56,145 nt of DNA from Prorocentrum cordatum (GCA_963575745.1 CAUYUJ010000110.1:62001-118145), one strand, 5' to 3'. Positions 25,181 to 46,168 are shown, counted from the stretch's first letter. Translations and numbers: made by a program. The notes: a model not told the origin generated them from the sequence alone.

Positions 25181-25238
<58 letters not shown>

Positions 25239-26237
25239 GCGACGACGACTGGTGAATCCCGCCCCTTCCCTTTTCGAGAGCCTGATCCCTCCCCCCCCAA
25301 GAGGAGGCGGAGGAGGAGGAGGAGGACGAGGAGGACGAGGAGGAGGAGAGGGAGGACGAGGAGGAGGAGAAGGAGGAGGACGAGGAGGAGGAGGAGAAGA
25401 TCGAGGAGGGGAGGGAATGAAGAAAAGGATCAGCGAAGTGGGAGCGGGCACCGCGCGCTGCGTTCGGCCGCCTTCGTGGCGACGAACCGCAGCGAGGCGA
25501 GCGGCGGGGCCGCCGGGGGGGGGCCTCCTCCTTTTCCTCTTCCTCTTCCTCCTCCTCGTTCTATCTCCTCGTCGTCCCCCTGTTCCTCACCCCCATCTTC
25601 GTCTTCCTCCTCCTTTCTCCTCCTCGTCCCTTTCCTTGTTCTCCTTGCCCTCCCCCTCCTCATTCTCCTCCTCCTCCTCCTCCTCCTCCTCTCCTCCTCC
25701 TCCTCCTCCTCCTCCTCCTCCTCCTCCCTCCTTCCTCCTCCTCCTCCTCCTCCTCCTCCTCCTCCTCCTCCTCCTCCTCCTCCTCCTCCTCCTCCTCCTC
25801 CTCCTCCTCCTCCTCCTCCTCCTCCTCCTCCTCCTCTCTTTACACCCTTGTCTCTCACCCTCAAGCCTTCCAGGTGCGCTCCAAAACGGCTCCATAACGC
25901 CTCGGTAAGATATCTCAGCATTAGTCAGAGGCCAAAGCGCGTTTCAAGACGGCCCAAAATGATTCCAATATGGCCCAAGAGTTACCCGAAACACCCCAAC
26001 GACACGGGCAAGTGGACCCCAAAACGTGTTTGCACATGCCAACGATATGTAGCGTTCTCCAAACTGCGATTGCAATGTTATTCTCGACGGATCAAGTGTT
26101 CATTGTGATGATGGCGATGTTATGCTAGTTGTTTTTTCCGCAGCCGACTGGAGCACGGCTGCAAGTGTAATTGCTGTGCCTCGTCGTCACGAGGCCAACC
26201 GTTGATATGAAATATGGATATGGCAGCGAGTGGTCAT

Positions 26238-29192
26238 TCACGAACTGCTGCCTGCAACCAAGATGTCGACCGATGCCTGCAGCACCTCATCCTTGAAATC
26301 TCCGTGCTCCCTGAATACCTCCAGATCGTTCTTAGCAGAATCACGCTGCAGCAGCAGCGCCTTCTTCACCCCAATAACGTTCGAGCCGCTCGCCGCTGCA
26401 CATACGAAGTATCCGGGAGGGGCCACGACCAGATCACCAGAAGCAGCTGTTGTTGTGAAAACGTGCATGCCTTTCTCGATGAGCGCCTTCGCGTCGTCCT
26501 GCTTCAAGGCTAGGAGCATCGTCAAGGCCCGGCTCTTGATATCGACATCCTTCATGTAGCCGAGATGGCTCAGCAGATCAACGCCCTTGATGAAGATGAG
26601 CTTGACGTTGCCTCCTTTGACGTAGTAGCGAGCAGAACCGAACAGGCCAGTCTCGAAGTCCATACCCACGAAAGTGGCTAGATATCCGAAAAACCACAGC
26701 TTGTCGGTAGAGGAGGCCACGACAGGATGCTTGCTGACGTCAGCGTACATCCGCTTCGGCGGAATGCTGCTCATGAGAGGCTCCGCCACAGATGCACCAT
26801 GGACCGCCGTCATCGGGGCATTCGCCTGGTCACCCCTCTTCTCGGCCATGGCGGGGAACTTCTCCAAGAACTTATCCACGCTGCTAGCCAGGGCGCTGTC
26901 CTTGAAAGCGTCGGTCCACGCGCCCCCAGCGCTGACTTTAAAAGGTTCGTCCAGCACTGCTGCTGAGTCCCCACTCAGCGCCTCCTCGAACTTTGGCGCA
27001 CCATCGAACGATTTGACAGCCTTGCCCCCGATCGCGCCCCAGTCCACTGCAAACGCCCCAGCCTTGGTGGCCCTGGGGGGGGGAACTGCGCCCAGCTGAG
27101 AGGACGACGAGGAGGACGTGGAGAAGGGCGAAGAGAGGAAGAGGAGGAGGAGGAGGAGGAGGAGGAGGGAGGCGAAGAAGAGCAGGAGCACGAAGAGAGG
27201 AGGAGGAGGAGGAGGAGGATGACAAATGAGAAGGAGGAGGATGGGATGGAGGAAGACAAGGAGACAGCGGGCAGGCAGTTCCCCCCCTGTCCTCATCGCT
27301 GTGATATGCTTCTTCAGGGCGCTGGTGGCCGCCGAAGCCGCCGCCCTCTGCTCCTCGAGCTTCTTGGCCTTCGCCTCCCTCTCGCGCTGGGCAGCTGCTT
27401 GTGAAGCCGTGCTGGCGCTCTTCTTCGCGAGTTTCGTGGCATCCATGATGCAATCGCGCAGCTGGCCGAGCTGCATCTTGAACTGGTCCACATTTGCCTC
27501 CGCCTCCTCAATCGCGTCCGGGGTGGTTGCGGCCCGAATGTCCCCAACCAGCGACTCCGCCCTGATCATGCAGAACAGCTCCTCCTTCTTATCGATGGGA
27601 AGTAGTTCGGCCCTCGCGACGGTCTCCTTCAACTTGTAGTCGTGATATGCCACCGCGTCGGAATTCAAGTGGTCTGGAAACTGGCCACCCGCCTGAGCCG
27701 CCTTGTAACCTTCGAGGGCCTTCTTGAAATTAGCATTGATGTCTATGTCTTGGGCGCTCGCGATTGACTCCACCTCGATGGTAATATCCTTGCCGAGGAC
27801 CATGGCCCCGATGAGGAAGCGCTCCAACAACAGGTTCTTTTCCTTCTCGCCTGAGTCGATGCCTTCCTTGTGCGCCTTCGAAGCGAGCGTCATAGACTTC
27901 TTGAGCTTGTCGCTTTCAAGCTGCAGTGCCCTCTGCTTTGCCTCTGCAGTTTTGAGTCTCGTGACACCGACGTCAAACTTTTGCTTCTTCGCCGAAAAGC
28001 CTGGATCTTTCGGCGACGTCTCCTTGGGGTAGTTGGGGTCCTTGGGGTCCTTGGAGCCAGCGGCGCTTGGACTGGAGGCGGCTGTCGGCGCGTGACTGAT
28101 CATGATGTCTGTAGCGGCCTTACCCGCATCGTCCGTAGCGTTGACAGCCTTGGCGGATGGAGCTAACAAGGCACTTGCTGAACTTGCAGCAGCGACCACG
28201 GCGAAGCCCTTGGTACAGTCCTTGACGGCGGTGTCCAGGTCGCTCTTCGCCATGGCCGCCCCCTTTGGCTTCGCCGTTACCATCTCCTGGGCATGGAAGT
28301 TCTTCGTCTCCTGCTTGCTCTGATCGGCCCCAACCATCCACGAAGGCACTGGCAGACGAAGTGGCGCCTCCGGGGGGCCACGATTGTCCTTTTGATCTTC
28401 TGGGGTGTCTTGCTCGAGCTGCGCCCACTCCTGCTTGATCTTGGCAGTCGACCACTGCCTGAGGGCCTTCAGCTGGGTGGAGAAAATCTCGAAGTCCCAC
28501 TTCGGTCTAGCTGACGAACCTGCGGTGCTTCTCTCGGTCCCCCTGCGATTGACGTACGTAGTAAGTGCAATGTCACTTCCCCGGGCTTTCGTGCTTCTCC
28601 CGCTGCCAACATCGCCCATGTCAGGATGCTTCGCTCTGACATCTTCCAGCACTTGACTTGCAAGCTCGATCTCCCCCTCGTAAGTCTTACAGCCCTTCTT
28701 CCCCTTGTGTCCGAAAATCTTCTTGAAACTCCTGGACTCCTCCGTCTCGGTGCTCTCGTCAGTGTCGTCGACGCCCTTCAGGCTGCGAGTCCTCAAGCAT
28801 TCGTAAATCCGATGGTGAATCCTGCAGTACTTTTTGTTCCCCACGATACATTCGCCGCACGTAAGAACAGGGCAGTTCTTAGCGGCAGCCGCCGCCGCCC
28901 GGGTCTTCGGCTTGGCCACGGCGCATCGTTGAGCCTTATGATCTGGTTCAGCTTCTGAGTCGGCTGCCGCTCCCAACCGCTTGAGGAATCTCTCAGACCG
29001 CGAAGTGAAGTGCGGCTCCTCATCTCCGAAACTGAACTCCCTGGCACCATCGGCATCCATGGCGCCCTTCAAGGGGGCCTTGCTGACGTCAAGACCCCGT
29101 GGCTCGATGCCGCCCGTCACCGGGGCACTGCCGTCGACATCGGCAGCTTCCGACATAATTACCAAGAGAATTGACAACGTTGCACGTCGCAT
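26238..29192 (-). CDS. Two-exon unknown protein (~911 aa after splicing): N-terminal C-x4-C-x10-C-x2-H zinc finger, coiled coil, possible JmjC/cupin-like C-terminal domain
   Basis: 984-codon ORF of natural composition except for a CCT-rich 219-nt in-frame insert (27073-27291) with ATGAG|GA donor and CCCAG|G acceptor. Motifs are CPVLTC...KYCRIH and SGDLVVAPPGYFV. The start may be the later Met (MSEAAD). Confidence 0.8.
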   Translation of the reverse strand: MRRATLSILLVIMSEAADVDGSAPVTGGIEPRGLDVSKAPLKGAMDADGAREFSFGDEEPHFTSRSERFLKRLGAAADSEAEPDHKAQRCAVAKPKTRAAAAAAKNCPVLTCGECIVGNKKYCRIHHRIYECLRTRSLKGVDDTDESTETEESRSFKKIFGHKGKKGCKTYEGEIELASQVLEDVRAKHPDMGDVGSGRSTKARGSDIALTTYVNRRGTERSTAGSSARPKWDFEIFSTQLKALRQWSTAKIKQEWAQLEQDTPEDQKDNRGPPEAPLRLPVPSWMVGADQSKQETKNFHAQEMVTAKPKGAAMAKSDLDTAVKDCTKGFAVVAAASSASALLAPSAKAVNATDDAGKAATDIMISHAPTAASSPSAAGSKDPKDPNYPKETSPKDPGFSAKKQKFDVGVTRLKTAEAKQRALQLESDKLKKSMTLASKAHKEGIDSGEKEKNLLLERFLIGAMVLGKDITIEVESIASAQDIDINANFKKALEGYKAAQAGGQFPDHLNSDAVAYHDYKLKETVARAELLPIDKKEELFCMIRAESLVGDIRAATTPDAIEEAEANVDQFKMQLGQLRDCIMDATKLAKKSASTASQAAAQREREAKAKKLEEQRAAASAATSALKKHITAMRTGGELPARCLLVFLHPILLLLICHPPPPPPPLFVLLLFFASLLLLLLLLLFLSSPFSTSSSSSSQLGAVPPPRATKAGAFAVDWGAIGGKAVKSFDGAPKFEEALSGDSAAVLDEPFKVSAGGAWTDAFKDSALASSVDKFLEKFPAMAEKRGDQANAPMTAVHGASVAEPLMSSIPPKRMYADVSKHPVVASSTDKLWFFGYLATFVGMDFETGLFGSARYYVKGGNVKLIFIKGVDLLSHLGYMKDVDIKSRALTMLLALKQDDAKALIEKGMHVFTTTAASGDLVVAPPGYFVCAAASGSNVIGVKKALLLQRDSAKNDLEVFREHGDFKDEVLQASVDILVAGSSS
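27073..27291 (-). other. GA-AG intron with 13-bp terminal inverted repeat
   Basis: GGGGGGGAACTGC (27077-27089) and GCAGTTCCCCCCC (27275-27287). Removal joins M-R-A-T-K in frame. Confidence 0.75.
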
Positions 29193-29325
29193 GTATCGCC
29201 ATGAAGAAATTGAAAATAGAAAGCACCCTCGACGGAGCCAACATCACTGCGCAAGCGGTTGGGGTTGGATCACGAAGTCAATCGACATCCGAATCCTCAC
29301 TCGTCACTTCTTGGGGCATCACGCA

Positions 29326-29524
29326 CCACTGTTTGGGTTCCACGTCCACTGTCCACTGTTTGAGTTCCACGCCTCACTGTTTGGGTTCCACGCCTCCACT
29401 GTCATGGGATCCACGCCCACTGCGGGGCTTCCAGTTATGGGATCCACGCCCACTGTTATGGGATCCACGCCTCCACTGTTATGGGATCCACGCCCACTGT
29501 TATGGGATCCACGCCCACTGTCAT
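29326..29524. repeat. ~21-bp tandem repeat (ccactgttatgggatccacgc) upstream of the zinc-finger gene
   Basis: About nine degenerate to perfect units. Confidence 0.85.
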
Positions 29525-29671
29525 GAGCTCGGCTTAAGGTTTGCGGTTTCTGACGCATGCCTTACTTGTTTGACGTGCGGGGGGGCATGGCATAGCATAG
29601 CATGTGTTACTTAATGCTTATTTGAAATATGATCCGACGTTTGTTTCACGCGCAGTACCCTTGTCACGCAT

Positions 29672-30068
<397 letters not shown>

Positions 30069-30312
30069 CAGGAGAAGCCTTTGGGGGTCCAGGATGCCTC
30101 GACCTTCGGGGTTCCAGGATGCCTGGGGCCTAGAGCCTTTGGGGTTCCAGGATGCCTGTCGCCATCTAGGGCAGCATCAGCACTGCGGTCCTCCCCCCAA
30201 CTGGCTTCCCAACGACGTCTCCACTCGGCTGTGGACAACTCAGATCGCCGAGGACGTGGGCGAGTAGAGCGAACGATCGGCTGCAGTGCGCGCGGCACCA
30301 CGTCTGGCAAGC

Positions 30313-32271
30313 CTAGGGCCCTGGCTTCTTCGAGCCACTGGCCGCTGCCTTGGACGCCCGGCCTGCCTCATCGTCATCCTCCATGATGTTCTTCCACTTG
30401 AAGTCGATGGGCGGGCACATGTAGTTTACCACGTCCCTCCTGATCGTGTGGCTTGCCACGAAGCAGAACCACGACTCCTCGGCAACCAGGTGCATCCCGT
30501 TGCCCAACGTAGTCTTACCCAAGGTCTGGGTCATCTCAGAGATGTCGAAAGGGAGCAGATCACGTAGCTCAGGATTCTTTGAGAAAGTCGGCCAGCCCTG
30601 CGAAAATGCCATCTCCTTCGGCGTGTAGATGTGATCTTTGTTCGCGTCCCCGATGTTGATGCTAACCATCTGCGAACTGCGTCGCACTGTGGGGATCCAG
30701 AGGGACATTCGGCTATGACCTTGCGGGTTGCTGCTGACATCAACGACCAGGCGGTTGCAATCCGGTGCCTCGCGTGTCTGTGCTAGCGCATGGTATCCAA
30801 GCAGAAAGTCGGCAGCGCTCGGCGACAGCGCCTCGAACGCATAGTTCGGGACTGTTTGGGACTGTTTGGACTGCTTGGACTGCGTCTTCAGGTTCTTCTG
30901 GATCTCCTCAGGGGTGTCTAACTGGCAGAAGACGCTGGCCGTGCTGACGACTTTCTCGCGGTAGATGTTCAGAAACGCGTCGGCCACACGCGGCCCCTTG
31001 TGCCCAGTCCAGACAAGGGTTTCGTGGCGGAGAGCAGCAGCCCGAACTCGCGAGCGGGCGGTAGGCCAGCCAAGATCCGTCGGCGAGAAGATCGCGTAGA
31101 TCACCTTGTGCGTCGCCGAAAGGCCTGCGATCAGGAGCTCCATCGGGAAGTGGTCGGACTCCTCCAGTAGCACGATGTCGAACAACTTGGCTTCTTCGAG
31201 CCACATGTTGAATGAGCTGATGGACTTGTGGGCAATCCCGTCCTTGTCACCTCCTGTACACCACGGTTGACAATGAGGCCCACTCCAGTTCATGGTCAAG
31301 GGCGTAGGCGCGTTGAAGAAGTCATCCTCACCGAACTTATCCTCACCAAATCGGCACGGGCACATGGCGCCGTCATGCACGAGGCACTTGTAGGACATCT
31401 TGCCCTTGCAGAAGAATGCCCAGTCATTTTTCTTCAGCTCCTCTTTGTGCTTCTCGTTGTGGTCCACCTTATCCCAGAACGGCAAACTTGAATGGAGTGG
31501 CGACACCTGCGGCAAGACCCTGGAGGGATCGTGAATATCCTCGACCTTCTTGTACACGTGCTTAGGCCTCAGAGGGTTATCCAAGCTGCAAATGTTCTTG
31601 ACCAGCTTCGCGTTCGACTCGGACGCCCTGTAGAGCAGCAGCCAAGGTACCGTGAGACCTGTTTGTCGTAGCGCGAGCTCCGTCATCTTCATCGCCATCT
31701 CTGCGCCCTGGGCACCGCTGAAGTCCGTGTGCAGGGCAATGCCATGCTCCAGCAAGCTGCACATACGACGACCACGAATGTCACCTCCATGTCCACTGCA
31801 GGTTTTCTTCACGCAGTGATCCGCGTGTCTCTCAAACTCATCTTGTGCACTCGGCCCCGGTGGGAGCCAACACGTCATCTTCTGTTATTGCTTGGTGTTC
31901 CCACCCTTGAGTTTGTCGATCTGGCGCTTGAACTCGACAGGCTCCATGGCCGAGTACTTCAGAGCAGCTGCATCCTCGTCAAGGTCGTCGTCGGACTCCT
32001 CTGCGAGGAGCTCAACGTCGCTCAAGCGCGAGCTCTTGCCGTCTTGATCGTCCTCGCTGTCTGCGTCCGACGCGCACAAGAGATCCTCGTCGAGCGCACC
32101 GCCATCAGCACGAGCAACCGCCTCTTCGAACTCGAAGGAATCCCTGGGCGGTTCGGGCTGGGGCTGTGGCGAACGAGACCGAGACCTTGGCCGTTCAGGC
32201 GATTGACCTTTTGGGACTTGACCCGCATCTGGAACCGCGCCATCTCCCTCGCGCCGATCATTCTCTGACAT
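30313..32271 (-). CDS. C5 cytosine DNA methyltransferase, divergent dinoflagellate type, with an acidic N-terminal extension; interrupted by one in-frame TAA at 31885-31887
   Basis: Motifs in canonical order: I DFSGAQG, II ASE, IV GPHCQPW, VI LLEES, VIII LGWPTARSRV, IX TPKEMAFSQGWP, X LGNGMH. ORF 31885-32271 is in frame with ORF 30313-31878. Confidence 0.85.
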
Positions 32272-32560
32272 CGCAACTGGAAGAACGTCAAATGTAAATG
32301 GACGCGATCTCTCACTTCACAGATGGACGGTCGACTCGAGCCTCGAAATACAGGGAGTTAGACTGGCCGACGCGCCAACGCGCATCATTGTTCTCACGCA
32401 GGGTCCACAGTCCACAGGTCCTCAGCGGTCGTTCACAAGTTCCCAAACAGCGCATGCCCACGAGTCCCCTAACAGTGCTTGTCCACAAGACCCCCGAGCA
32501 GTGCTTGCTCAGAAGTCCCCAAAGAGTGGTTAGGGTCACGGACATACGAGACGACACGAC

Positions 32561-32617
32561 GCGACCACTTTTTGGGACAAACAGCGCCCGGCGACCACTT
32601 TCCCAAAAAGTGGTCGC
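32561..32617. other. 17-bp perfect inverted repeat plus an internal third half-site
   Basis: GCGACCACTTTTTGGGA (32561-32577) and TCCCAAAAAGTGGTCGC (32601-32617); extra GCGACCACTTT at 32591-32601. Confidence 0.8.
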
Positions 32618-32744
32618 CCCGCCGCTGCGCGACGTGACCCCAAGGCGGCCCATCCCCGAGACATTAGCTAACAAAGGCGTGATAAACACATACTTCCGCC
32701 AGCTTCCGTCAACTTCGGGAACCCAAGAGCGCCCAAGAGGGCCT

Positions 32745-33480
32745 TTGGAGGGGCCCTAAGACGGCTCCAAGAGGGCCCCAAGAGGGCCCCAAGAGGGTCC
32801 CAAGAAGGCCCCAAGGGGTTGTCACGGAAAGGGGCCCTGCGTGACAACCCCAGCGGTTCCTCTTGGAGCCCTCTTGGGACCTTCTGAGGGCCCTTGGAGG
32901 GGCCCTGAGGCGGCTCCAAGAGGGCCCCAACAGGGCCCCAAGAGGGCCCCAAGGGGTTGTCACGGAAAGGGGCCCTGCGTGACAACCCCAGCGGTTCCTC
33001 TTGGAGCCCTCTTGGGACCCTCTGAAGGTCTTTGGAGGGGCCCTAAGACGGCTCCAAGAGGGCCCCAAGAGGGCCCCAAGAGGGTCCCAAGAGGGCCCCA
33101 AGGGGTTGTCACGGAAAGGGGCCCTGCGTGACAACCCCAGCGGTTCCTCTTGGAGCCCTCTTGGGACCTTCTGAGGGCCCTTGGAGGGGCCCTAAGGCGG
33201 CTCCAAGAGGGCCCCAACAGGGCCCCAAGAGGGCCCCAAGGGGTTGTCACGGAAAGGGTCCCTGCGTGACAACCCCAGCGGTTCTTCTTGGAGCCCTCTT
33301 GGGTCCCTCTGAGGGCCTTTGGAGGGGCCCTAAGACGGCCCCAAGAGGGCCCCAAGAGGGTCCCAAGGAGGCCCCAAGGGGTTGTCACGGAAAGGGGCCC
33401 TGCGTGACAACCCCAGCGGTGGTTCCTCTTGGAGCCCTCTTGGGACCTTCTGAAGGCCTTTGGAGGGGCCCTAAGACGGC
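32745..33480. repeat. Five-unit tandem array (138-149 bp), each unit carrying a 12-13-12 palindrome
   Basis: GGGGTTGTCACG-N13-CGTGACAACCCC starting at 32815, 32953, 33102, 33240 and 33378. Confidence 0.92.
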
Positions 33481-34376
33481 GGGAGGCTCGAGGTTCTATA
33501 GGGCTATGGGGCTATGGGGCTATAGGGCTATAGGGCTATGGGGCTAGAGGGCTAGAGGGCTATGGGGCTGTGGGGCTATGGGGCTATAGGGCTATAGGGC
33601 TATAGGGCTATGGGGCTATAGGGCTATAGGGCTATAGAGCTATGAGGCTATAGGGATTTGAGCCCTATGGGTGCTCGCTGGCGCCTTTGTTAGTGAGCTC
33701 ACAGGCATCGTTTCTCGTGAGGGCGCAAAGCATCCCAGAAGGCCCTTTGCCAAGTAGAGGTCCCTTCCAGTGAAAAACAAGTTTTTGCACAATTCATGTT
33801 TTTGTTCAGCGACGTTTGTTATGTTTGATACAACATCAATACTGCGAAATGATGTCTTGGTGTTCGCATCTGTTTCATTAAGTTGTTCATTGTTTTTGTT
33901 TGAATGTGTGGTTGTGTTTCGCTCATGTTTGGCTTTTGGCTGGTTCTGAAAACGTTTGAACATAATTCACTGGTGTTCATACGTGTCGGTCGTTCATTGC
34001 TTTCTTTTGTTGATGTTCACGTGTTTTTTTCATGTGCACATTATTTTTCAACAGTTTTAATAAGTTTTACTGCGTTTCGTGATTTTTTTGTGAAAGCTAA
34101 AGGTTTTTATGCGTTTCAATACTTGTTTAGCATTTTATGCTACTTTTTTATACGTTTTTACAACGTTTGGTACATTTTTGGTATTGCTTGTTACTTTTAG
34201 CTGTATTTGGGTAGTTTTTCATACTTTTTGATATATTTCGCTACTTTCGCTACGTTGCGGTGTTTTTTTTTGGTGTTTTTGGCTTTTTCATAGCAGTTTG
34301 GTGTGTTTTTGCTTTTTTCATAGCAGTTTTGTGGTTTTGTTGTTTTTTCGCGCGTCTGGCTGCTTCAAGGCGGCCT

Positions 34377-34452
34377 CCCCGGAAGTTCCCCGGAAGTTCC
34401 CCGGAAGTTCCCCGGAAGTTCCCCGGAAGTTCCCCGGAAGTTCCCCGGAAGT
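34377..34452. repeat. (CCCCGGAAGTT)~7 perfect 11-bp tandem repeat at the T-rich/A-rich switch point
   Basis: Six full units plus a 10/11 unit. Confidence 0.95.
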
Positions 34453-35246
34453 GAAGGAGCGAGTATGCAACAAAACCAACGAATCTCACAACAATGCTTT
34501 TTGTCCCAAGAAAATGCGAAAAAGCACGAAAAAGCATGAACAAATACCAACATGTACCAAAACGTACCAAAAAGTATGAAAAATTATGGAAAAGTGAGAA
34601 AAAGTATGAAATAGTATGAAAAAGTATGAAAATGTATGAAAAAGTATGAAAAATACAAAAACGTATGAAAAAGTATGAAAAATATGAAAAAGTATGAGAA
34701 AGTATGAAAACATATGAAAAAAGTATGAAAAAAAACATCAAAAAGTCCAAAAACGTATGAAAAAACATCAAAACACATCAAAACATATGAAAACTCACGA
34801 CAACAAATTCACGATAACACAAAACATAAAAAAGCATCAAGAAGTATCGAAAAAGCATCACAACATATCAAAACGCAACAAAACATAGGAATCATCATCA
34901 ACACTTAACCAAAAGCAGCAAAACACATTTAAACACAACAAACACTATTAGATCGCATCAAAAAGCTTGAAAAACTTTGCAAATGTCAGGCACGCTCCAA
35001 CATTGTTTAAATTGTATACAGTTTTGGAGACACACAGGTTTAATGGCCTCCCTTGGCCATGGACCCTTGGGGAGCCCATGGGAGGCACGACGGGCACCCA
35101 CAGGACTCATAGCCCTATTGCCTCATAGCCCTATGGCCCTGTAGCCCTATAGCCCTAGAGCCCCATAGCCCCATAGCCCTATAGCCCTATGGCCCCATAG
35201 CCCTACAGCCCTACAGCCCTATCGCCCTGGTCTACACGTTTTGTTT

Positions 35247-35398
35247 TGAATTCCTGGTACGTTAGCATGTTTTTTTTTGAAACCCTGGTACGTTTGCACG
35301 CGTGTTTTTGGAAACCCTGGTACGTTAGCATGCCCCATGCTTGAAACCCTGGTACGTTTGCATGTCCATGTTTTGAGCACCCTGATACGTTGGCATGT
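35247..35398. repeat. ~32-bp period repeat with core gaaaccctggtacgtt(a/t)gca(t/c)g, five copies
   Basis: Cores near 35249, 35279, 35311, 35344 and 35377. Confidence 0.85.
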
Positions 35399-35882
35399 TT
35401 GTAGAGATGATGTTAGCTCCGTAGGCCACATAGCCCTATAGCCATATAACCCTATAGCTCTACAGCCCTATAGCCCTATAGCCTTACAGCCCTATAGCTC
35501 TATAGCCCTACAGCCCTATAGCTCTACAGCCCTATAGCCCTATAGCTCTACAGCCCTATAGCCCTATAGCCTTACAGCCCCATAGCCCAACACGCCCAAG
35601 ACAGCGTCCAAGACGGCCCGAGACGGTCTCCAAGACAACGTCCAAGATGGCCGAGACCACTGGGCCCTGGAAGGCCGAGGACTCCAATGGACCCGCACGG
35701 CAGCACGGCAGAGCAGACCAACACAGCAGACCAGCAAGGCAGACCAGCACGGCAGACCAGCGCGGCAGATCAGTAGTATTGCATATCAGCGAGGCAGACC
35801 AGCACAGAAAACCAGACGGGCACGGCAGGAGCCCAAACATGCCCAAGACGCCCAAGGAGCCCAAAGAATACCCAAGAAAGGC

Positions 35883-36248
35883 GCACCCCTCACGCGGATC
35901 CGCGAACGAGGGGTTAGGACGGGCAGTCACGACCCCTCTTCCCCCCCCCAGCACTTGGTGTTGGAGGGGAGGGGGTTCGTGACCTTCGCCCCCGCCCGTG
36001 GGAGCCCCCGGTCGCGGACCCTAGGGCAGGCGGTGAGGCGGAAGCCTAGGGCTAGTGCCCGATGATGCACCCCTCACGCGGATCCGCCAAAGGGGGGTTG
36101 GGACGGGCAGTCGCGACCCCTCCTCCCCCCCAGCACTTGGTGCTGAAGGGGACGGGGGTCGCGACCTTCGCCCCCGCCCGTGGGAGCCCCCGTTCGCGGA
36201 CCCTAGGGCAGACGGCGAGGCGGAAGCCTAGGGCTATTGCCCATGATG
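35883..36248. repeat. 184-bp tandem duplication
   Basis: gcacccctcacgcggatccgc...ggaagcctagggcta at 35883 and 36067. Confidence 0.9.
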
Positions 36249-36986
36249 CCCAGAAATTGGGGCCCGAGATGCCCATAAGGGCCCAAAGACGGACCCGCCC
36301 AATACGCCCAAGACAGCGTCCAAGACGGCCCGAGACGGTCTCCAAAACGGCCCACCCAAGGCAACCTCCAAGATTGCCCACCCAAGACGGCCCACCCAAG
36401 ACGTCCTCCAAGACAGCCCGCCCAAGACAGCGCCCAAGACGGCCCGAGACGGTCTTCAAGACGGCCCACCCAAGACAACACCCAAGGCTGCCCACCTAAG
36501 ACTGTCAAGGCTATAGCGGCATCATAGCATAGCATAGCCAGGCCCATAACAGCATCATAGCATAGCAGAGCATAGCCATGGTGTGGGACTCTGTCTGCAC
36601 GCGCGATTGAGTGAGACTGTGCATGGACGAAGATATTCAGTCAGCCAGTCAGTCAGTCAGTCAGCAGAAGCGGCACTAAGAGTCCGGGTGGGAGCGGCAA
36701 CGTATGAGTTAGTCTGGCCGTTGGGGTTTGGGGGCTGAGAACAGGTGAGTCTGAACACGAGTGGATGACGCGAGTCAAGGTGACCGTCGTCGAGCACGAA
36801 TTTGAGTCTGAGTATGAGTCTCATGAGTCCCCCTGCGGATGGCAATGGGGAATGCAACGCCCAAGAAATCAAAGTATGAAGCAGGAAGGATGTGGATGGA
36901 AGAACAGGGAGGAGGAGGAGGAGGAGGAGGAGGAGGATCCTGCAATGATTTTGCTTGCGCCACCGCCAAACAACTTCAGTTGGAAG

Positions 36987-39900
36987 TTATGGGTTAAAGA
37001 ACTCCATGTTGTCGAGGGCATCCATGGTCGGCAGCTTCAACGGGTCTGGGTAGTCACGGTGATCGGGTTGGTTATCCACCATGCGGCAATTCAGAACCCA
37101 CCATTTGAGTAACTTCTCTGTGTGATACTTCCCACCGTTCGCATTCCACAGGCGCCTTCGGCGACACTTCCCATGGTATTTCCGCAAAGGGCATGCAACC
37201 TCATGGCCGATAGGTTCACCTGTAGTTTTATGGTACACGAATGTGAACCTGGCCCCACGCCAGTTTTGATTGTTCTCCTTGACCCGTCCAATAGGCCCAA
37301 CTGGTGGCGGCGGCACATCCTCCTTCAAAGCCTCGTCTGAAGAGTCTGAAGAAGAGCTCGAACTGCTACTGGAACTCGAACTACTACTACCCTTGGCACT
37401 CGAGGAAGCTTCTGGCTCAGGATCAGCATGTAGTGATTCTTCATATGTTGCACCTTCTTCGTCTTCAGGTCCAGGCGCTGGCTCCACGGGCGCGGGCCCC
37501 TGAGGGGGCTTGTCTTTGACCTTCGGCATCTTTGGAAGTGCGCCCTGATGCCCGGGCGTCGCGTCAAAATCAAAGTCATCTTTTTTCCTGCGTTCTGATG
37601 GTTGGTAGTCGTTACCTTCAATCCAAGCTCTGTAAAACCCTTCAGCCCTGCCATGCGGAACGTCTTTGCCGTGCGTCTTGTGATACAGAAGGGCCAACAA
37701 ATAATAACGCTGGAAAGTCGTTGCAGATTCTTTTATATACCACTGCTTTGTCACGCCATTTCTGTAGACATCAACCCCCCTCCTCGAGTGGACAACGCTG
37801 CATTGCCAGCCATCACGTTCCAGCCGTAACAAGATGTTGATCATGGACAGGTCTTCCATTGCAAGCCCATCTCCAGTTCCCAGAGCAAGCTGCGGCTCGT
37901 TTATAGGCTGAGTGGTCCGCATGGCCTCCTTCCCGCGTGGACTGATTGCCCAGCCAGATTCATTAGATTGCGTCACATACCCATGAGTTACAAGGAAATC
38001 GAGAGCATGTTGATGGCCTTCCAGGTCGTCGCGATCAACGACGGCAACCCCTCCTGAACTTGCCCCGGTGAAGAGAAGTTTCTCAACGACGGTTTGCAAA
38101 GATGTGAATAACTCCGCGGGCGTGTCTCGACCGAACACGTGGCATAAGGGCTTTTTGTTTGGAAACGTCCTCAAGCTCCTCCATTCAGACATTGAGAAGG
38201 TTGATGGTGTAATAACAATCGATGCTTCGGCAAGCGAAATATCAGTATCATTCATCTCAGCGAACATCTGGCCGTCGTCATACGGCTCGTCTACGTTGCA
38301 GAGGCTGCACGCAATCGAATCGTACTGTTGTACTTTCAAGGCTCCCTCAGGGACTTGAAATACAGAAGGCTGGGCATGTTGGATTGCGAAGTATACAGAA
38401 TGGACGCCGCCTGGGCCTGTCGAGCACCACGACGGCTTCAACCCCTTGGCGGCGCAGCATTCGCCGCCCATCTCTTCGTCGAAATCGAAGCCATCCGATT
38501 CATCGCCACCTCGGCTGCCTACATCGACGCACTGAGGGTTGACGACGTCAATGAGCTTCAAGAACGGCGGGACCGTGAAAGGATTGTCCATGGTGATAGC
38601 AAAAATACAATGCGTGGACGCCGAATCCCTGTGATTGAACAAGTCCCTGAGCTCACGTAAGGCGTACGTCGAGAACACTTCGACATACCTCGGCGAATGG
38701 CCGATGTCCTTGCCAGCGGCGGGAGCACCTGCACTGGGACCTGCACCGCCCCCAGGGGCATCGCCCCCACTGCTTCCACCGCCTCCGCTGCCTCCAACGC
38801 TTCCACTACTGCTGCCACTGCCTCCACTACCACCAGCGGCAGGGGCATCGCCTGAGCCGCCACCGCCTGAGCCGCCACCTCCTGCGCCACCTCCGCCGCC
38901 AGGTGGACCTTCGCCGCCGCTGCCACTGCTGCCTCCAGCGCCTGCTCCTGGGGACAGACAATACTGGGCATCCTCGCCCCGCTCCTCCCCCTCCTCCTTC
39001 TCCTTCCCCTCCTCCGCCTACTCTTCCTCTTCCTCTTCCTCTCCTTCTCATCCTCCTCTCCTCCTCCTCCTACTCCTCCTCCTCCTCCTCCTCTCCTTCT
39101 CCTCCCCTTCTCCTCCTTTCCTCCTCTCCTCCTCCTCCTCCTCCTCCTCCTCCTCCTCCTCCTCCCCGCCATTGATCTTAGCCCCCGGGCGTCCTTCGGG
39201 CCCTGGCCCAGCGGGTGGTGGCGGTGGAGGTGGAGGTCGAAGTGGGAGAACGTCTGGAAGGTCTTGGTGCAGCGTGCGAGTGTCCAAGTGATATATGATG
39301 CGAGTCACTTCTGGCAACAGCTTCCTGCTCAACTCCTTCTTCTTACTCGCCGCTAGCATTTCCTGAATCCGGGGATGACTGCTGAGACCCATCGCCTGCA
39401 GTCCTGATAAACCAGTCTTCACAGATGAACAATGATCGACCATCGCCTCCAATGATCGTGGATGTTGTTTCAGTTTAGCCCGAAGCGTAGGGAGCATTGA
39501 ATGAAAGGCGACGTGGACTGGTCCTGCGTGGTGAGCACTTGTAAGCCAATGCCTGCTGGCCGCATGGAGAGCTTCCACCCACCGCTCGCTGGTTAATACA
39601 AATCGAAATCGCCCCATCATTCGATATAGCAACGGCAAAGTTTTTGGATCAGCACCAGAAATGAATGCCTTCATCTCGTCACAACCTCTGGAAGCAGGGT
39701 CGCAGAGAACAGTCTCGAGAAAGTGCGCCCGATATCCATGGTCACGACGTCGATGAGTCCACAATCTCAAGGATTTCCTGGCGCACTCACGGCCGACACC
39801 AACACTGCTGCTTGCAATGCCCATCAACACCCAAGGTAATTGCTGCCAACACCCGAACTTGAGAGTGCAGACAAGGTATACATACCGCCGAGTAGCATCG

Positions 39901-42706
39901 TAGTCCCTCAACACCTGCGCGCGATCCCCGCCGTCTAAACTCATCGCAGCCAGCTCGAATAATAAACCATTCAGCGAAACCCGCAAGAGCAAATTGATAA
40001 ACTCAGTGAATTTGCCAGCTACCAGCTCAGGAGCCCTGCGACAAATCATCGGGCATGGCTTGCCCACAATGCGAGCCCAATAACTCGTCCTCTCTTGATT
40101 GGTGAAGCTGGTTTCGCCCGGGATGGTGTCGTGGCACGGGCAATTGTCGATCCATCCCGCCATGTAGAGGAATAGCGTTGCAACCACATCTACCATGATG
40201 GCGTATCCCCAGAACCGTTTCAATTTGACTGCTTGGTCCACCAGGTCCACGTTGGCTCCCTTCAGGGAGAGGGAAAGTGCACGCCATCGCCAGGTTTCCA
40301 CAGGCCCATGTTGGGCAAGATCCTAGTGGAGATGGATTTCGGGCCATGCCAAGAGACCGCATCCACTAGGGTCTGGCCTCACACTGGGCCTATGGAAGCC
40401 CCGTGGCGTCGTGTATGTTCCCTCTCCCTAGCCTTCTTCTCGTCGGGCACATTCTCATCATCCCTTGCAACGCCTCGGCCTGCCACATAGCGCGCTCGAT
40501 CCCAACCCGTGCGCAGGGCGCCCATGATGTGCGGATCTACGAGCTGGTGAGTCGCATTGCGCACTGTACCCCAGCGGCCCGTGTACACAGTGGCGTTAAA
40601 AGAAGCGATGTTCTGATAGAATACCGAAGCGGCGCCATTCGCGAAGCATGAATTCAGGAGCCTCGCTTTAGAAAAACGCATACTCAACATCTTGCACACA
40701 TTCTTCAAATACAAGACATATTGATCCCACCAGCTCAGAACCTCAGGCAGCCCCTTCGTCAGATTGTGCAAGATGTGGTGCGGGCCAGGAATGTACACGC
40801 ACTTCGACAGGTCCACGATGTACGCATCCTCCCCTGGGTAGTCGCACTCTTCGCGGTCAGGTCGATTTGCTGCGTCGTCCTGGATATCATCGCCCTCTCC
40901 GAAGTCGAAGCCTTGAACCTCTGCGTCGAAGTCAAAATCTGATTGACCACCAACAGCGCCATTGATAATGCGATTGTCCTCTGCAGTAATCCACTGACCG
41001 AAGTTGTCCCGAACGTCAGCGCGGTAGTGAAACGTAGATGCTTCTCCGAGATCTCCTGTCACACTTACAGTTGAATTCAACATCTGACACGCCGCCTTCC
41101 AAGTGGGCGACTGAAGCTTCACTGCGTGAATCAAAGCATGGCCTTTGTACTTCAAAGATTTTCTACCGCTTCCCACTCCTACAGGGCATCCCGACTCCAT
41201 GCCCAGAAGGTCCCGTAGTTCGTCGAAGAGGTCTGCCTCGTTCTCCGGGCGCTCCGACGAGACCAACGACATCGAAATATCCAAGGCCCGTGGAAGATCA
41301 CGTTGCCGCATTTGAGAGCCGCCGTGAAGAAGCCATTCAATTCCAGCTTGAGGTGAGAGATCCAGTGTCCTCCAAGTAACAAGCGCCACTCCGTCGCTCA
41401 CGAGTTGGCCGTTCAGTGCCTGGCGATACGCGCAGTAGCCCAAGTGCAGAGTCATCCTATGTCGGTACAATGTAGTCCGTGTCGGAATAAAACGGTTATC
41501 CCGCAGGAGGCCAATGAGATAATCTCGAAGGTTAATGTCTGCGACTACCACGTAGAGGCAATGCTCGGTTACCTCCTATTTGGGATTTCCATGACACCAT
41601 TCACTGCTGTTGCCATCCACCCTCTCCCACCTGAGTTGTTTTGCTCTGTGGATCTGCAGATATGCCTGGCAGATCCAAATCAAAACAAGTCAGGGGATGG
41701 AGAAGGTGTGCAGCAGTCGAGGCGGGTGTCATGGGAATCCTCAGTCCTTGAATGAGTTCACATCTCGCAGTAAGCCAGAACCGATGACTGCATGAACAAG
41801 CATTTCCATGCTGTAAGCTTGGCGTGTCAACCTCAATTGTTGCACCAACATGTGGTTCCTCATATTTTGAAGCCACGTGGCATGATGAATGGCTTCATCA
41901 GTGAAAGCATGATTGCGAGCCATCTGGCTAACGCACTTCAGGAGCACATCAGCGGCGCCTTGAAGCTCGTCGATGTCAAGGACACGGCCATCCTCACATG
42001 GCACCCCGGTGACTCCTCTCTGAAGCTCCACTTGTCCGAGGTTGCGCCACAACGGCCGAACTAGAGACATTCGAAGTCCACGCGATCTCCTGAAATCGGA
42101 ACCCACGGGGAAACCCCATGCAGTCCATATTCTTCGAGAACAAAGAATCGCGTGGGGCATTGCCATCACAGCTCCTGTCTGCACGTTGGGTGAACCTTGA
42201 TCGTCTTTAGGGCATATGACTCCATGCCTGCGCTCCCACTCGCCAATGACATCTCCAAGCGGCACGCCATGATTGACACCAGCACGCATACACCGTCGAC
42301 ACGTCGCATCAGATACCAGAGTGAACAACGATTTGACTGCATCTGTCCCGTCCGTGGTGTACATGTGTACTGGTTCTGACAACTCTACCGCGTCTTCCAC
42401 ACGAACCATAAGTATTGGATCATCTCTGTATTTTGTCTGGGCCCAGTAATCAAGCACTGCCCGCTCGGATGAAAGTAAAAACGTGGATATGTCTGGGACG
42501 CACTTTGTCTGGAATATTGCTAGGCCAACCACGTGCATGTGTCGTGAACGGAAATGCACAGCCAGCTCCCGGGCGCTGGAGAAAGGAAGCCCACATTCCC
42601 GAGAGATTTGCTCACACACTTTATTTGACCAAACGCATGCTAGCGGCACATGGTTCCTGCCATCGCTGAGTCTGTCATGTCTCCGCGCAACAATCCAAGC
42701 GTACAT
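36987..42706 (-). CDS. Four-exon ~1709-aa putative DDE transposase (hAT-like motif layout) with C-terminal winged-helix-like and Cys/His motifs; exons 42706-41747, 41575-40433, 40259-39194, 38947-36987
   Basis: Four ORF-track ORFs join in frame through AAG|GA..TAG|G, AAG|GC..AAG|G and AAG|GA..CAG|G junctions (5130 nt, no internal stop). Motifs: RTLDLSPQAG (D1), VTGDLGE (D2), PGPHHILHN, TGRWGT, SERWVEALH (E). The gene structure is well supported; the transposase call is inference. Confidence 0.7.
38948..39193 (-). other. GA-AG intron 3 of the transposase-like gene (246 nt, GAG-rich)
   Basis: Phase-1 GAAG|GA donor and CCCCAG|GA acceptor. Removal deletes the in-frame TGA at 39048-39050 and opens a Gly/Ser-rich linker. 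Confidence 0.65.
40260..40432 (-). other. GC-AG hairpin intron 2 of the transposase-like gene (173 nt)
   Basis: AGGGAGAGGGAA (40264-40275) and TTCCCTCTCCCT (40418-40429) plus nested inner stems; removal restores the frame. Confidence 0.8.
41576..41746 (-). other. GA-AG hairpin intron 1 of the transposase-like gene (171 nt)
   Basis: GGATTTCCATGACACC (41583-41598) and GGTGTCATGGGAATCC (41725-41740), 15/16 match; inner stem tggatctgc/gcagatcca. Confidence 0.8.
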
Positions 42707-43193
42707 GTATGTATTTGGAAAATATCACAATATCACCGTTGAACCCAAATGGATACGGAACACGAACACTAACCGAAACCCGAGTGCGCGCATGTGGTAA
42801 CCTTCATCCCCTCACACGAAACGTTGCCCACAAAGAGCCACAAGGAAGCCGACAAATGGCCTACTGGACCCTCAGGCGAGGTGAAAGGGCCCAAGGACCA
42901 TCAAACGGAAAGGGCCCAAGAAAAGACCTTGGGCCTGCGGTGGGCCCATGAAATATGGAGGGGCACGAGGAGCAGGGGAGGAAGGGGAGGAGGCGGAGGA
43001 GGAGGAGGAGGATAGTGGGTAGGAAGAGGATGAGGAGGAGGAGGAGGAGGAGGAGGAGGAGGAGAAGGAGAAGGAGGAGGAAGAGGATTTGTTCAGATCC
43101 GAACGATAATCAACGCTCAGGTTGGGGGTTGGCCCCTGGGGCCTCCCCAGGGCCCCAACAAGATCGGGGCGGGATTCACCAACGACGACGACG

Positions 43194-43229
<36 letters not shown>

Positions 43230-44018: not shown

Positions 44019-44170
44019 CGACCTGCTCAGCTCGGAGCAGTCAACGACCTGCTCAGGTCGAGCGGGACACTTCGCTCTCCACCCCCGAACAACTGAACGA
44101 CCTGCTCAGGTCGGAGCAGTTGAACGGCCTGCTCAGATCGAGCGGCACAAATGAACGATCTGCTCAGGTC
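44019..44170. repeat. Short repeat cluster with core aacgacctgctcaggtcg
   Basis: About five degenerate copies, plus one at ~44590. Confidence 0.8.
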
Positions 44171-44652: not shown

Positions 44653-44830
44653 GAAAGGGGGGGGAGGGGGGTCTGGCTCCGGATCCCTGCTCAGTCCGAC
44701 TGTTGACAGCAGGGCGTCCTGTGGGGGAGACTCCACCTGCTCGAAACAGGCACCAAAAACAGCCAAGATCCACTCCACTGGAGTGGGGGAAGGGGGGGGT
44801 GCGAGGGCCCGCGCCGATCGGCAGAACAAC
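44653..44830 (+). repeat. Dispersed repeat B, copy 2
   Basis: Aligns by eye with 16330-16510. Confidence 0.8.
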
Positions 44831-46086: not shown

Positions 46087-46168
46087 CAGTCGAAACCGAT
46101 GATAGGGATGGGTAACCTTTCCAAGGGTACCCTTGCATCCTTGCCTCTTCGGTCCATCCTTGACTACT
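46087..46168 (+). repeat. Dispersed repeat A, copy 2, beginning TA|CAGTCGAAACC
   Basis: Homologous to the reverse complement of 13682-13745. Confidence 0.75.

What the first reader, a model, noticed from the sequence alone, without database searches (positions are those of the whole stretch)
26238..42706. Candidate large DNA transposon carrying a cytosine methyltransferase and a zinc-finger/cupin-like gene
Seen: in a window that is otherwise mostly repeats, three long, intron-poor genes lie in tandem on the minus strand: DDE-transposase-like (36987-42706), C5-DNMT (30313-32271) and zinc-finger/coiled-coil/cupin-like (26238-29192). Known: Symbiodinium retrotransposons have captured DNMT domains (de Mendoza et al. 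2018), and fungal KDZ transposons travel with TET/JBP DNA-modifying genes. Inference: this may be a cut-and-paste element that carries its own methylation module, a combination I do not recall being described in dinoflagellates. Caveats: I found no TIR or TSD; co-orientation is the default in dinoflagellate gene blocks; 4.7 kb of repeats separate the transposase-like gene from the DNMT; and the transposase-like gene looks less GC-rich by eye.
Basis: partly seen in the sequence, partly recalled or inferred. Interest (0 to 1): 0.85.

Follow-up and report, generated by a model that had tools for sequence, protein, structure and literature searches.

The report
hAT-like transposon carrying a DNA methyltransferase
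The three neighbouring genes sit inside one 17.9-kb jumping-gene-like unit, bounded by matching inverted ends, whose enzyme folds like a known cut-and-paste transposase and which also carries a gene for a cytosine-methylating enzyme.

Summary
A perfect 16-bp inverted repeat (25250-25265 and 43166-43181) encloses all three minus-strand genes. Outside both arms lies one (GAC)n microsatellite in direct orientation. The longest exact flanking duplication is 8 bp, the length I recall as typical of hAT elements.

The large gene (42706-36987, about 4 exons) has no Pfam hit. A model of a homologue matches only the Hermes hAT transposase (Z 14.2-14.5, about 400 residues aligned; next unrelated chain Z 8.7 or lower), and the D, D, E positions are conserved.

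The middle gene belongs to a very large divergent family (2066 representatives). The family profile hits DNMT2 and M.HhaI (E 2e-8 to 2e-4), and the C5-methyltransferase motifs are present.

The third gene is a collinear partner of the transposase in one metagenome contig, L002. That contig has no methyltransferase, and neither do the other three related loci. So the methyltransferase looks like variable cargo, not a fixed module.

Only one full copy was seen. Diverged pieces (82-86% identity) of the transposase gene occur in the same sequencing run.

This is a new variant of a known kind.

The parts
25242..25249 (.). Left target-site duplication ACGACGAC, the last 8 bases of a (GAC)n microsatellite at 25181-25249
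   Evidence: Identical to 43182-43189. Exact flanking direct repeats of 2, 5 and 8 bp are possible and 11 fails, so 8 is the longest.
25250..25265 (+). Left terminal inverted repeat TGGTGAATCCCGCCCC
   Evidence: Perfect 16/16 inverted match to 43166-43181. These are the only two matches in the window, even with up to 3 mismatches allowed.
26238..29192 (-). Third gene (accessory ORF of unknown function). It has a conserved C..C..C..H cluster near 28815-28874. A probable intron or low-complexity insert lies over the (GAG)n tract at 27100-27253.
   Evidence: 1001-codon open frame with no Pfam or PDB sequence hit. Residues 122-630 are collinear with an ORF downstream of the transposase in L002 (BLASTP E 3e-18, 23% identity).
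30313..31878 (-). Divergent C5-cytosine-methyltransferase-like gene, a single ORF of about 521 aa. Motifs: I HTDFSG (from 31731), IV GPHCQPW (Cys at 31270-31272), VI LEES (Glu at 31162-31164), VIII RSRVR, IX QGWP, X GNGMH.
   Evidence: The family profile hits DNMT2 (E 2.1e-8) and M.HhaI (E 2.4e-4). Invariant in 60 aligned members: C205, E241, R279, G430, G461.
32434..36502 (.). Internal spacer of satellites between the methyltransferase and transposase genes. It contains units of 11, 138 and 287 bp, 8-bp units, and 10/30-bp A-rich units. Related 11-mer satellites also occur outside the element.
   Evidence: TRF and self-BLAST.
36987..42706 (-). hAT-like transposase gene, about 4 exons and about 1750 aa.
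- Candidate catalytic D at 41360-41362 (WRTLDLSPQ) and D at 41051-41053 (TGDLGE).
- HxxxH at 40766-40780 (GPHHILHN).
- CPCH from 40142.
- Acidic helix SERWVEALHA (E at 39585-39587 and 39573-39575).
- A conserved C-terminal extension of about 570 aa (36987-38700) ending in the motif W.G.RFT...EV.CP..H..C.
43166..43181 (-). Right terminal inverted repeat (TGGTGAATCCCGCCCC read on the minus strand)
43182..43189 (.). Right target-site duplication ACGACGAC, the first 8 bases of the (ACG)n = (GAC)n tract at 43182-43229
   Evidence: If the element and one copy of the 8 bp are removed, the two flanks join in phase into one imperfect (GAC/GGC)n microsatellite. This is read directly.

Best explanation
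Window 25250-43181 is one 17,932-bp cut-and-paste DNA transposon of a very divergent, Pfam-invisible hAT-like lineage. It is inserted in a (GAC)n microsatellite of a probably dinoflagellate genome. The host is an inference from the GA-AG and GC-AG introns, the repeat-rich GC-rich DNA and relatives in marine metagenomes.

Shown:
- A perfect 16-bp TIR pair and an 8-bp flanking duplication.
- A transposase gene of about 1750 aa whose core has the Hermes fold, an RNase-H-like DDE domain split by an all-alpha insertion domain.
- The acidic triad is kept in the window's copy.
- A downstream gene of unknown function is the transposase's conserved partner in a distant relative.
- A C5-cytosine-methyltransferase-like ORF lies between the two, with all catalytic motifs intact.

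Inferred:
- The transposase binds the TIRs, excises the whole unit and reinserts it with 8-bp staggered cuts, as hAT elements do.
- The third gene is an accessory DNA-binding or regulatory factor of the family.
- The methyltransferase gene was captured into the spacer of this copy or lineage and is mobilised passively.
- Its most likely use is to methylate the element's own or newly inserted DNA, or possibly RNA. In a heavily CG-methylated host this would make the element look like host DNA or tune transposase binding to its ends. No evidence here addresses that function.
For: 1. Termini.
- Scanning 13000-26238 against 42724-50000 for an 8-bp duplication plus a 12-bp inverted repeat gave one hit. 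It extends to 16/16.
- Among 1665 non-low-complexity inverted 11-mer pairs 1-40 kb apart in the whole window, it is the only one with identical 8-bp flanks directly outside.
- The only other non-satellite inverted pair of 16 bp or more is a local hairpin at 32561/32601.
- The flanks are direct, not inverted: (GAC)n on the + strand on both sides. They rejoin in phase once 8 bp are removed.

2. Fold.
- The AF2 model of L002:2102-4504 (13-row alignment) has mean pLDDT 65.9 and pTM 0.62.
- Foldseek: the top 11 rows are all Hermes (E 2.9e-4 to 3.8e-2, prob 0.99-1.00); the next rows have prob 0.33 or lower.
- VIA-align: Hermes Z 12.4-14.5, 377-400 residues aligned, rmsd 4.5-5.3; next chain Z 7.5 on 88 residues.
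- The independent search of 48,161 chains again puts Hermes first (Z 14.2). Retroviral integrase cores follow at Z 6.1-7.7, and ISCth4 and IstA transposases at 7.5 and 6.3.

3. Catalytic residues.
- The first D lies in beta-1 and the second D just after beta-4 of the model.
- D1 is kept in 10 of 10 family sequences that cover it.
- D2 is kept in 9 of 10; L001 has G.
- The E of 'RW.E' is kept in 9 of 9.

4. Synteny. In L002 the transposase is a 1712-codon ORF, about 29% identical to the window's. An ORF collinear with the third gene follows 2.6 kb downstream on the same strand.

5. Methyltransferase.

6. More than one copy. Run X1, which holds the window's sequence at 99% or more, also has contigs at 82-86% identity over the same gene (15 of its 31 laid contigs are under 90%). 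A marine metagenome, X2, holds an approximately 96% relative over the whole stretch.

7. No competing mobile context for the methyltransferase.
- No inverted repeat of 11 bp or more and no direct repeat of 12 bp or more brackets it.
- No reverse transcriptase, endonuclease or integrase was found in the 7 long frames or the 144 other ORFs.
Against: - Only one full copy was seen. No second copy with the same termini and no empty site could be examined.
- The duplication lies in a microsatellite, so 2, 5 or 8 bp all fit. If the family prefers (GAC)n targets, two ends of different elements could mimic a duplication.
- The TIR starts TGGTG, not the YARNG-type start that I recall for hAT elements.
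- No shared subterminal repeats were found.
- No Pfam hAT, BED or dimerisation domain was found at E up to 1. No PDB sequence hit was found.
- The model is of a 29-37% identical relative, not of the window's protein, and is of medium confidence.
- The methyltransferase is absent from all 4 related loci. This includes L002, the only one that holds both flanking genes.
- 4 kb of satellites related to those outside the element sit inside it, so the copy may be old.
- The run labelled 'RNA?' shows the first intron unspliced and no joints, so splicing rests on homology alone.
- The methyltransferase fold was not confirmed: the AF2 model built on 3 sequences has pLDDT 31.6.
Confidence: 0.6

Rival explanations
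1. The element is real, but the methyltransferase is not functionally part of it. It would be an independent mobile or duplicated gene from the very large family (2066 representative clusters) that landed in the element's repeat-rich spacer, or a remnant of a DNMT-bearing retrotransposon.
For: - The methyltransferase is absent from L002 and from the other three loci.
- The family is far larger than the handful of transposase relatives found (although the two search methods differ).
- Dinoflagellate DNMTs of an orphan lineage are known as ORF1 of LINEs (PMC5890265, passages read).
- The spacer is full of satellites that also occur outside the element.
Against: - No TSD-like direct repeat, TIR or LTR surrounds the gene.
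- No reverse transcriptase or endonuclease ORF was found anywhere in 13-56 kb.
- LINE insertions, as I recall, lose their 5' part and not their 3' part.
- The ORF is intact with all catalytic motifs.
- Its GC3 (0.74) matches the third gene (0.71-0.72).
- Whatever its origin, it lies between the TIRs and would move with the element.
Confidence: 0.2
2. The inverted repeat is a coincidence. The three genes are merely neighbours in a unidirectional dinoflagellate gene array, with a domesticated or fossil transposase among them.
For: - About 0.4 perfect 16-bp inverted pairs are expected somewhere in a random 56-kb sequence (my estimate: half of 56145 squared, divided by 4 to the 16th).
- Co-orientation is the default in such genomes.
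- The transposase has introns and a 570-aa extra C-terminal region.
- Only one copy was seen in full.
Against: - The pair brackets the gene cluster closely, 457 bp and 988 bp from the outer gene ends.
- It abuts the same microsatellite in direct orientation on both sides.
- It is the only one of 1665 inverted pairs with matching 8-bp flanks.
- The D, D, E positions are conserved across the family.
- A second, diverged copy exists in the same run.
- The partner gene is syntenic at about 29% protein identity, as expected for an element's gene set.
Confidence: 0.12
3. The cluster is part of an integrated viral or virus-like element, for example a fragment of a giant virus that brought a transposase and a methyltransferase together.
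For: A Mariner element in a phycodnavirus encodes a transposase, an endonuclease and a C5 methylase (PMC3627910, passages read). The genes here are intron-poor.
Against: - No relative of the transposase or the methyltransferase was found in 2.9 million viral contigs.
- No capsid, polymerase or other viral family was found among the ORFs scanned.
- The introns have GA-AG and GC-AG ends.
Confidence: 0.04

Closest known systems
hAT superfamily DNA transposons (Hermes, Ac, hobo, Tol2)
   Same: - The transposase core has the Hermes fold over about 400 residues, including the all-alpha insertion domain and the C-terminal helix that carries the last acidic residue.
- D, D, E lie at the expected structural positions.
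- A His-containing motif (GPHHILHN) sits where hAT proteins have CxxH.
- The TIRs are short and perfect, and the flanking duplication is 8 bp.
   Different: - No detectable sequence similarity: no Pfam hAT, BED or dimerisation hit and no PDB sequence hit.
- The protein is about three times longer, with a conserved N-terminal region of about 330 aa and a C-terminal extension of about 570 aa.
- The TIR starts TGGTG.
- At 17.9 kb with three genes, the element is far larger than the few-kb hAT elements I recall.
- A conserved second gene accompanies the transposase.
Fungal TET/JBP-carrying DNA transposons, including hAT7 families (PMC12730594, abstract and passages read)
   Same: - A cut-and-paste element, hAT among the lineages, carries a gene for an enzyme that acts on cytosine methylation, in the same orientation as the transposase.
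- That paper reports capture without signature sequences at the ends of the captured segment. Here too, no repeats flank the cargo.
   Different: The cargo here writes the mark (a C5 methyltransferase) instead of oxidising it. The host is a protist. The transposase lineage is unrelated at sequence level.
SymbioLINE-Dnmt and SymbioDIRS-Dnmt3 retrotransposons of Symbiodinium (PMC5890265, abstract and passages read)
   Same: A mobile element of a dinoflagellate-type genome encodes a stand-alone, divergent DNMT. The DNMT family has very many copies.
   Different: Those are retrotransposons, with the DNMT as ORF1 upstream of a reverse transcriptase or inside a DIRS Pol. Here there is no reverse transcriptase, and the DNMT sits between TIRs next to a DDE transposase. 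Whether the two DNMT lineages are the same was not tested.
Mariner-1_OLpv in a phycodnavirus (PMC3627910, passages read)
   Same: A DDE cut-and-paste transposon that encodes a C5 DNA methylase.
   Different: That element is a Tc/mariner transposon residing in a virus, paired with a restriction-type endonuclease, and its methylase is canonical (CDD E 9e-72). Here the element is hAT-like, nuclear, has no endonuclease partner, and its methylase is invisible to Pfam.

Membership tests
hAT superfamily transposase | RNase-H-like DDE catalytic domain interrupted by a large all-alpha insertion domain, with the third acidic residue in a C-terminal helix | tested here: met
   The model of a family member (L002) gives Hermes Z 14.2-14.5, 386-400 residues aligned, model residues 5/43-638 against Hermes 116/143-609. 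The window's own protein was not folded; it is 29-37% identical to the modelled one.
hAT superfamily transposase | Conserved D, D, E triad | tested here: met
   D1 is kept in 10 of 10 sequences, D2 in 9 of 10 and the E of 'RW.E' in 9 of 9. All three are present in the window. Assignment to Hermes D180, D248 and E572 is by position in the model's secondary structure and recalled Hermes numbering, not by a residue-level superposition.
hAT superfamily transposase | Sequence match to hAT family models (for example the hAT C-terminal dimerisation domain, or a BED finger) | tested here: not met
   No Pfam family at E up to 1 for 9 family proteins and pieces. There is only a sub-threshold zf-C2H2 hit (E 0.088) at residues 37-62 of the N-terminal piece.
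hAT superfamily transposase | 8-bp target-site duplication and short TIRs | tested here: met
   The TIR is 16 bp and perfect. The longest exact flanking duplication is 8 bp. Because the target is a trinucleotide repeat, 2 or 5 bp cannot be excluded.
hAT superfamily transposase | TIR beginning with the YARNG-type consensus (recalled, from no call) | tested here: not met
   The TIR begins TGGTG.
hAT superfamily transposase | Several genomic copies sharing the same termini | not testable with these tools
   No genome is held for this window. Diverged contigs (82-86% identity) over the transposase gene exist in run X1, but their ends were not seen.
C5 cytosine methyltransferase (DNA_methylase, PF00145) | Ordered motifs I (FxGxG), IV (PCQ with catalytic Cys), VI (ENV), VIII (RxR), IX and X (GN) | tested here: met
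   The motifs are HTDFSG, GPHCQPW, LEES, RSRVR, QGWP and GNGMH, in that order. C205, E241, R279, G430 and G461 are invariant in 60 aligned members. The motif names and consensus are recalled.
C5 cytosine methyltransferase (DNA_methylase, PF00145) | Pfam model match at the gathering threshold | tested here: not met
   The window's protein has no hit at E up to 10. Five of 60 family members have a weak hit, best E 6e-4.
C5 cytosine methyltransferase (DNA_methylase, PF00145) | Profile similarity to enzymes of solved structure | tested here: met
   Of 19 PDB sequences at E up to 1, 18 are C5 methyltransferases. DNMT2 scores 2.1e-8 and M.HhaI 2.4e-4. The match covers profile positions about 228-324, motifs IV to VIII only.
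C5 cytosine methyltransferase (DNA_methylase, PF00145) | Methyltransferase fold | tested here: inconclusive
   The AF2 model built on a 3-sequence alignment failed, with mean pLDDT 31.6.
SymbioLINE-Dnmt retrotransposon | DNMT ORF directly upstream of an ORF with endonuclease and reverse transcriptase | tested here: not met
   No RVT_1, Exo_endo_phos, RNase_H or integrase hit in the 7 long frames or the 144 other ORFs between 13 and 56 kb.

The most novel reading that the evidence does not exclude
This is the first sighting of a deep, Pfam-invisible branch of hAT-like transposons in dinoflagellate-type genomes. Its features would be a transposase of about 1700 aa, an obligatory second gene, and a preference for (GAC)n microsatellites. 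In some lineages it would have recruited a C5 methyltransferase from the huge orphan DNMT family, giving a DNA-transposon counterpart of the DNMT-bearing retrotransposons. Self-methylation by mobile elements would then be a general strategy in these heavily methylated genomes, not a quirk of two retrotransposon families.
Probability: 0.3. Interest if true: 0.8.

Novelty: new variant of a known kind. Interest (0 to 1): 0.66.

Why it matters
Mobile elements that carry the enzymes of the host's silencing system are rare and informative. The known cases are DNMTs in retrotransposons of Symbiodinium and a charophyte, TET/JBP in fungal DNA transposons, and a methylase in a virus-borne Mariner.

A nuclear cut-and-paste element with a C5 methyltransferase between its inverted ends would add the missing combination. 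It would also give a compact, testable unit: ends, transposase, accessory gene and methylase.

The work also gives a structural assignment to two protein families that standard annotation leaves blank. One is a hAT-like transposase family. The other is a very large C5-methyltransferase-like family from marine sequence data. Surveys of dinoflagellate DNMTs based on PF00145 may miss most of the latter.

Tried and rejected
- Single-sequence Pfam and PDB searches of all seven frames gave nothing useful.
- The AF2 model of the methyltransferase built on 3 sequences was unusable.
- The window's genome is not held. The ESM Atlas could not be reached. Cluster members could not be listed, so the organisms and sources of the homologues are unknown. 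Earlier findings of the scan were empty.
- Viral contigs hold no relative of the transposase or the methyltransferase and no exact match to the end sequence. Prokaryote genome contigs hold no relative of the methyltransferase.
Smaller alignments worked.
- No RNA holder is listed.
- In one search no joints were seen. A contig of the run guessed to be RNA covers the first intron unspliced. This is no evidence on splicing or expression either way.
- X4's contigs lie almost only on a low-complexity stretch at 39197-39247.
- Long TIRs were sought by self-BLAST and none was found.
- No shared subterminal words exist between the two ends beyond the TIR.
- The 5' ends of the window's element and of L002 do not align, and the 16-mer is absent from L001-L004.
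- Nested-insertion signatures around the methyltransferase: none.
- CpG observed/expected is 0.81-1.06 in the coding parts and 0.78 over the element, against 0.80 and 0.98 in the flanks. There is no depletion signal.
- Papers: five full-text searches found no description of a hAT-like or other nuclear DNA transposon with a C5-DNMT in dinoflagellates. Supplements were not opened.
Full report
**What is there**

The window is repeat-rich (124 TRF rows; one 100-N gap at 3393-3492). Between 26 and 43 kb on the minus strand lie the only long frames with ordinary protein composition:
- 26238-29243 (1001 codons);
- 30313-31884 (523 codons);
- a set of four frames, 41741-42724, 40379-41575, 39048-40322 and 36987-39017.

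None has a Pfam hit on its own. None has a PDB sequence hit. Of 144 further ORFs of 90 aa or more between 13 and 56 kb, none reaches a Pfam cut-off and none hits a reverse transcriptase, endonuclease or integrase.

**The large gene is one gene, and it is a hAT-like transposase**

Word-based searches found a few relatives (P0010, P0011, P0161-P0164). These run without a break across three of the four frames.

A metagenome scan gave four loci. In L002 the whole protein, including the part matching the fourth frame, is one ORF of 1712 codons.

The window's gene therefore has introns. One is a 165-base in-frame intron at about 41740-41576 with GA...AG ends. Another lies at about 40444-40263 with GC...AG ends. 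Probably a third lies in the GAG-rich tract near 39000. These introns are inferred from homology only.

A 13-row alignment gave an AF2 model of the L002 core with mean pLDDT 65.9 and pTM 0.62.
- Foldseek against the PDB returned Hermes transposase in all of its top 11 rows (E 2.9e-4 to 3.8e-2, probability 0.99-1.00) and nothing else above probability 0.33.
- VIA-align gave Hermes Z 12.4-14.5 with 377-400 residues aligned and rmsd 4.5-5.3. The next chain scored Z 7.5 on 88 residues, and P element transposase Z 5.5.
- A search that does not depend on Foldseek, over 48,161 chains, again put Hermes first (Z 14.2). Only one other chain reached Z 8 or more, a local helical match. Retroviral integrase cores followed at Z 6.1-7.7, then ISCth4 and IstA transposases.

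In the model the first conserved Asp (..D.SPQ) lies in the first strand and the second (TGDLG) lies just after the fourth strand. A His-rich helix (G..H..HN) follows the fifth strand, and the conserved 'ERW.E' lies in a late helix. Across family sequences that cover each site:
- D1 is kept in 10 of 10;
- D2 is kept in 9 of 10 (L001 has Gly and looks degenerate);
- the second Glu is kept in 9 of 9.

The window's copy has all of them. By sequence the family is not a member of any Pfam hAT model. By structure and active-site layout it works like one.

**The ends**

I scanned for an 8-bp duplication next to a 12-bp inverted repeat, with the left end in 13000-26238 and the right end in 42724-50000. 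This gave one hit.

Reading the sequence shows a perfect 16-bp inverted repeat, TGGTGAATCCCGCCCC, at 25250-25265 and 43166-43181. These are its only two occurrences in the window, even allowing 3 mismatches.

Outside both arms is a (GAC)n tract on the same strand, so the flanks are direct repeats and not an extension of the inverted repeat. Exact flanking duplications of 2, 5 and 8 bp fit, and 11 bp does not, so 8 is the longest. Removing the element and one 8-bp copy rejoins the flanks in phase into one imperfect (GAC/GGC)n microsatellite.

Among 1665 non-low-complexity inverted 11-mer pairs lying 1-40 kb apart in the window, this is the only one with identical 8-bp flanks at offset zero. The only other non-satellite inverted pair of 16 bp or more is a local hairpin.

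The unit is 17,932 bp. The transposase start lies 457 bp inside the right end, and the stop of the third gene lies 988 bp inside the left end.

Caveats:
- A single 16-bp inverted pair somewhere in 56 kb is not rare by itself (about 0.4 expected by my estimate).
- The duplication lies in a microsatellite.
- No subterminal repeats were found.
- The TIR does not begin like the hAT consensus that I recall.

**The middle gene**

The exhaustive profile search found 2066 representative proteins at E up to 1e-3, of which 983 are at 1e-10 and 192 at 1e-30. In a 60-row alignment the invariant residues are the Cys of G-P-x-C-x-P-W, the Glu of L-E-x-S, an Arg of R-x-R, and Gly residues of G-W-P and G-N-G.

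The profile hits 19 PDB sequences at E up to 1, and 18 of them are C5 methyltransferases. DNMT2 scores 2.1e-8 and M.HhaI 2.4e-4, over motifs IV to VIII. Only 5 of 60 members touch PF00145, and weakly. The window's protein does not touch it at all.

So it is a very divergent C5-methyltransferase-like protein with an intact catalytic set. The best hits being DNMT2 leaves RNA as a possible substrate. The fold itself was not confirmed.

The gene is most simply a single ORF starting at the Met at 31876-31878.

**The third gene and linkage**

Residues 122-630 of the 1001-codon frame align collinearly with an ORF in L002 (E 3e-18, 23% identity). That ORF lies 2.6 kb downstream of the transposase on the same strand and is cut by the contig end. 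A C..C..C..H cluster and a KWDFE.F motif are shared.

The transposases of the two loci are only about 29% identical, so this gene pair is an old, conserved arrangement.

A profile of the methyltransferase family finds nothing in L001-L004, that is 0 of 4. Only L002 has enough downstream DNA for the test to be meaningful. The methyltransferase is therefore not a fixed part of the family.

Around it in the window there is no inverted repeat of 11 bp or more and no direct repeat of 12 bp or more, and there is no retrotransposon ORF. It does not look like a nested element.

GC3 separates the transposase (0.52-0.59) from the other two genes (0.71-0.74). The same direction holds between the two genes of L002.

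**Copies elsewhere**

Contigs of four public runs were laid on 39166-42966.
- X1 holds the stretch at 99% or more, and also a second set of contigs at 82-86% identity (15 of 31 laid contigs are under 90%). The gene is therefore not single-copy in that sample.
- X2, a marine metagenome, holds an approximately 96% relative over the whole stretch.
- X3 holds many pieces at 90-95%.
- No joints were seen.

**Comparison with what is known**

- De Mendoza et al. 2018 (PMC5890265, abstract and passages read) describe DNMTs inside LINE and DIRS retrotransposons of Symbiodinium. They searched with PF00145.
- Bao and Jurka 2013 (PMC3627910, passages read) describe a virus-borne Mariner with a C5 methylase.
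- A 2025 paper (PMC12730594, abstract and passages read) shows fungal DNA transposons, hAT7 among them, carrying TET/JBP genes that were captured without end signatures.
- Five full-text searches found no nuclear cut-and-paste element with a C5-DNMT in dinoflagellates.

**Verdict**

The best reading is a hAT-like autonomous transposon with a conserved accessory gene and a captured methyltransferase. I put this at about 0.6. It is a new variant of a known kind. What the methyltransferase does for the element is inference only.

Noticed in passing
L002:648-732: A (GAC)28 microsatellite ends about 380 bp upstream of the 1712-codon transposase ORF. This mirrors the window, where the (GAC)n flank lies 457 bp upstream of the transposase start. 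It may mark the 5' end of that element and hint at a (GAC)n target preference. L001 and L003 show no such tract upstream, and the DNA after it does not align with the window's end.
   Followed up: partly
window 30313-31884 (family level): The methyltransferase-like family is very large (2066 representatives at 50% identity), yet only 5 of 60 aligned members touch PF00145. Surveys of DNMTs based on that Pfam model may miss most of it.
   Followed up: partly
window 25301-25414 and 42967-43087: A (GAG)n tract sits just inside each end of the element, 35 and 78 bp from the TIRs. Both are in the same strand orientation, so they are direct and not inverted.
   Followed up: no
window 36987-37300; L001:8484-8771; L002:5843-6127: The C-terminal end of the transposase carries a conserved motif W.G.RFT...G.EV.CP...H..C, found in three loci. 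No family matches it. It may be a zinc-binding module.
   Followed up: no
window 47596-48352 and 48376-49121: A tandem duplication of about 760 bp at 89% identity lies outside the element.
   Followed up: no
window 16336-16511 and 44660-44829: A 178-bp direct repeat at 81% identity lies on either side of the element, well outside the TIRs. It is probably a dispersed repeat.
   Followed up: no
window 6173-8527, 11995-12991, 18166-19838: Kilobase-scale (CAT)n/(TCA)n/(TGA)n trinucleotide arrays, mutually similar and in both orientations.
   Followed up: no
window 50000-56145: GC content rises to 0.69-0.73 and long open frames appear on both strands (up to 844 codons), with no Pfam hit. These are probably composition artefacts, but a gene is not excluded.
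   Followed up: no
L001:4890-5124: The L001 copy of the transposase has Gly in place of the second catalytic Asp (TGGLGK) and several frame breaks. It looks like a decayed copy.
   Followed up: no
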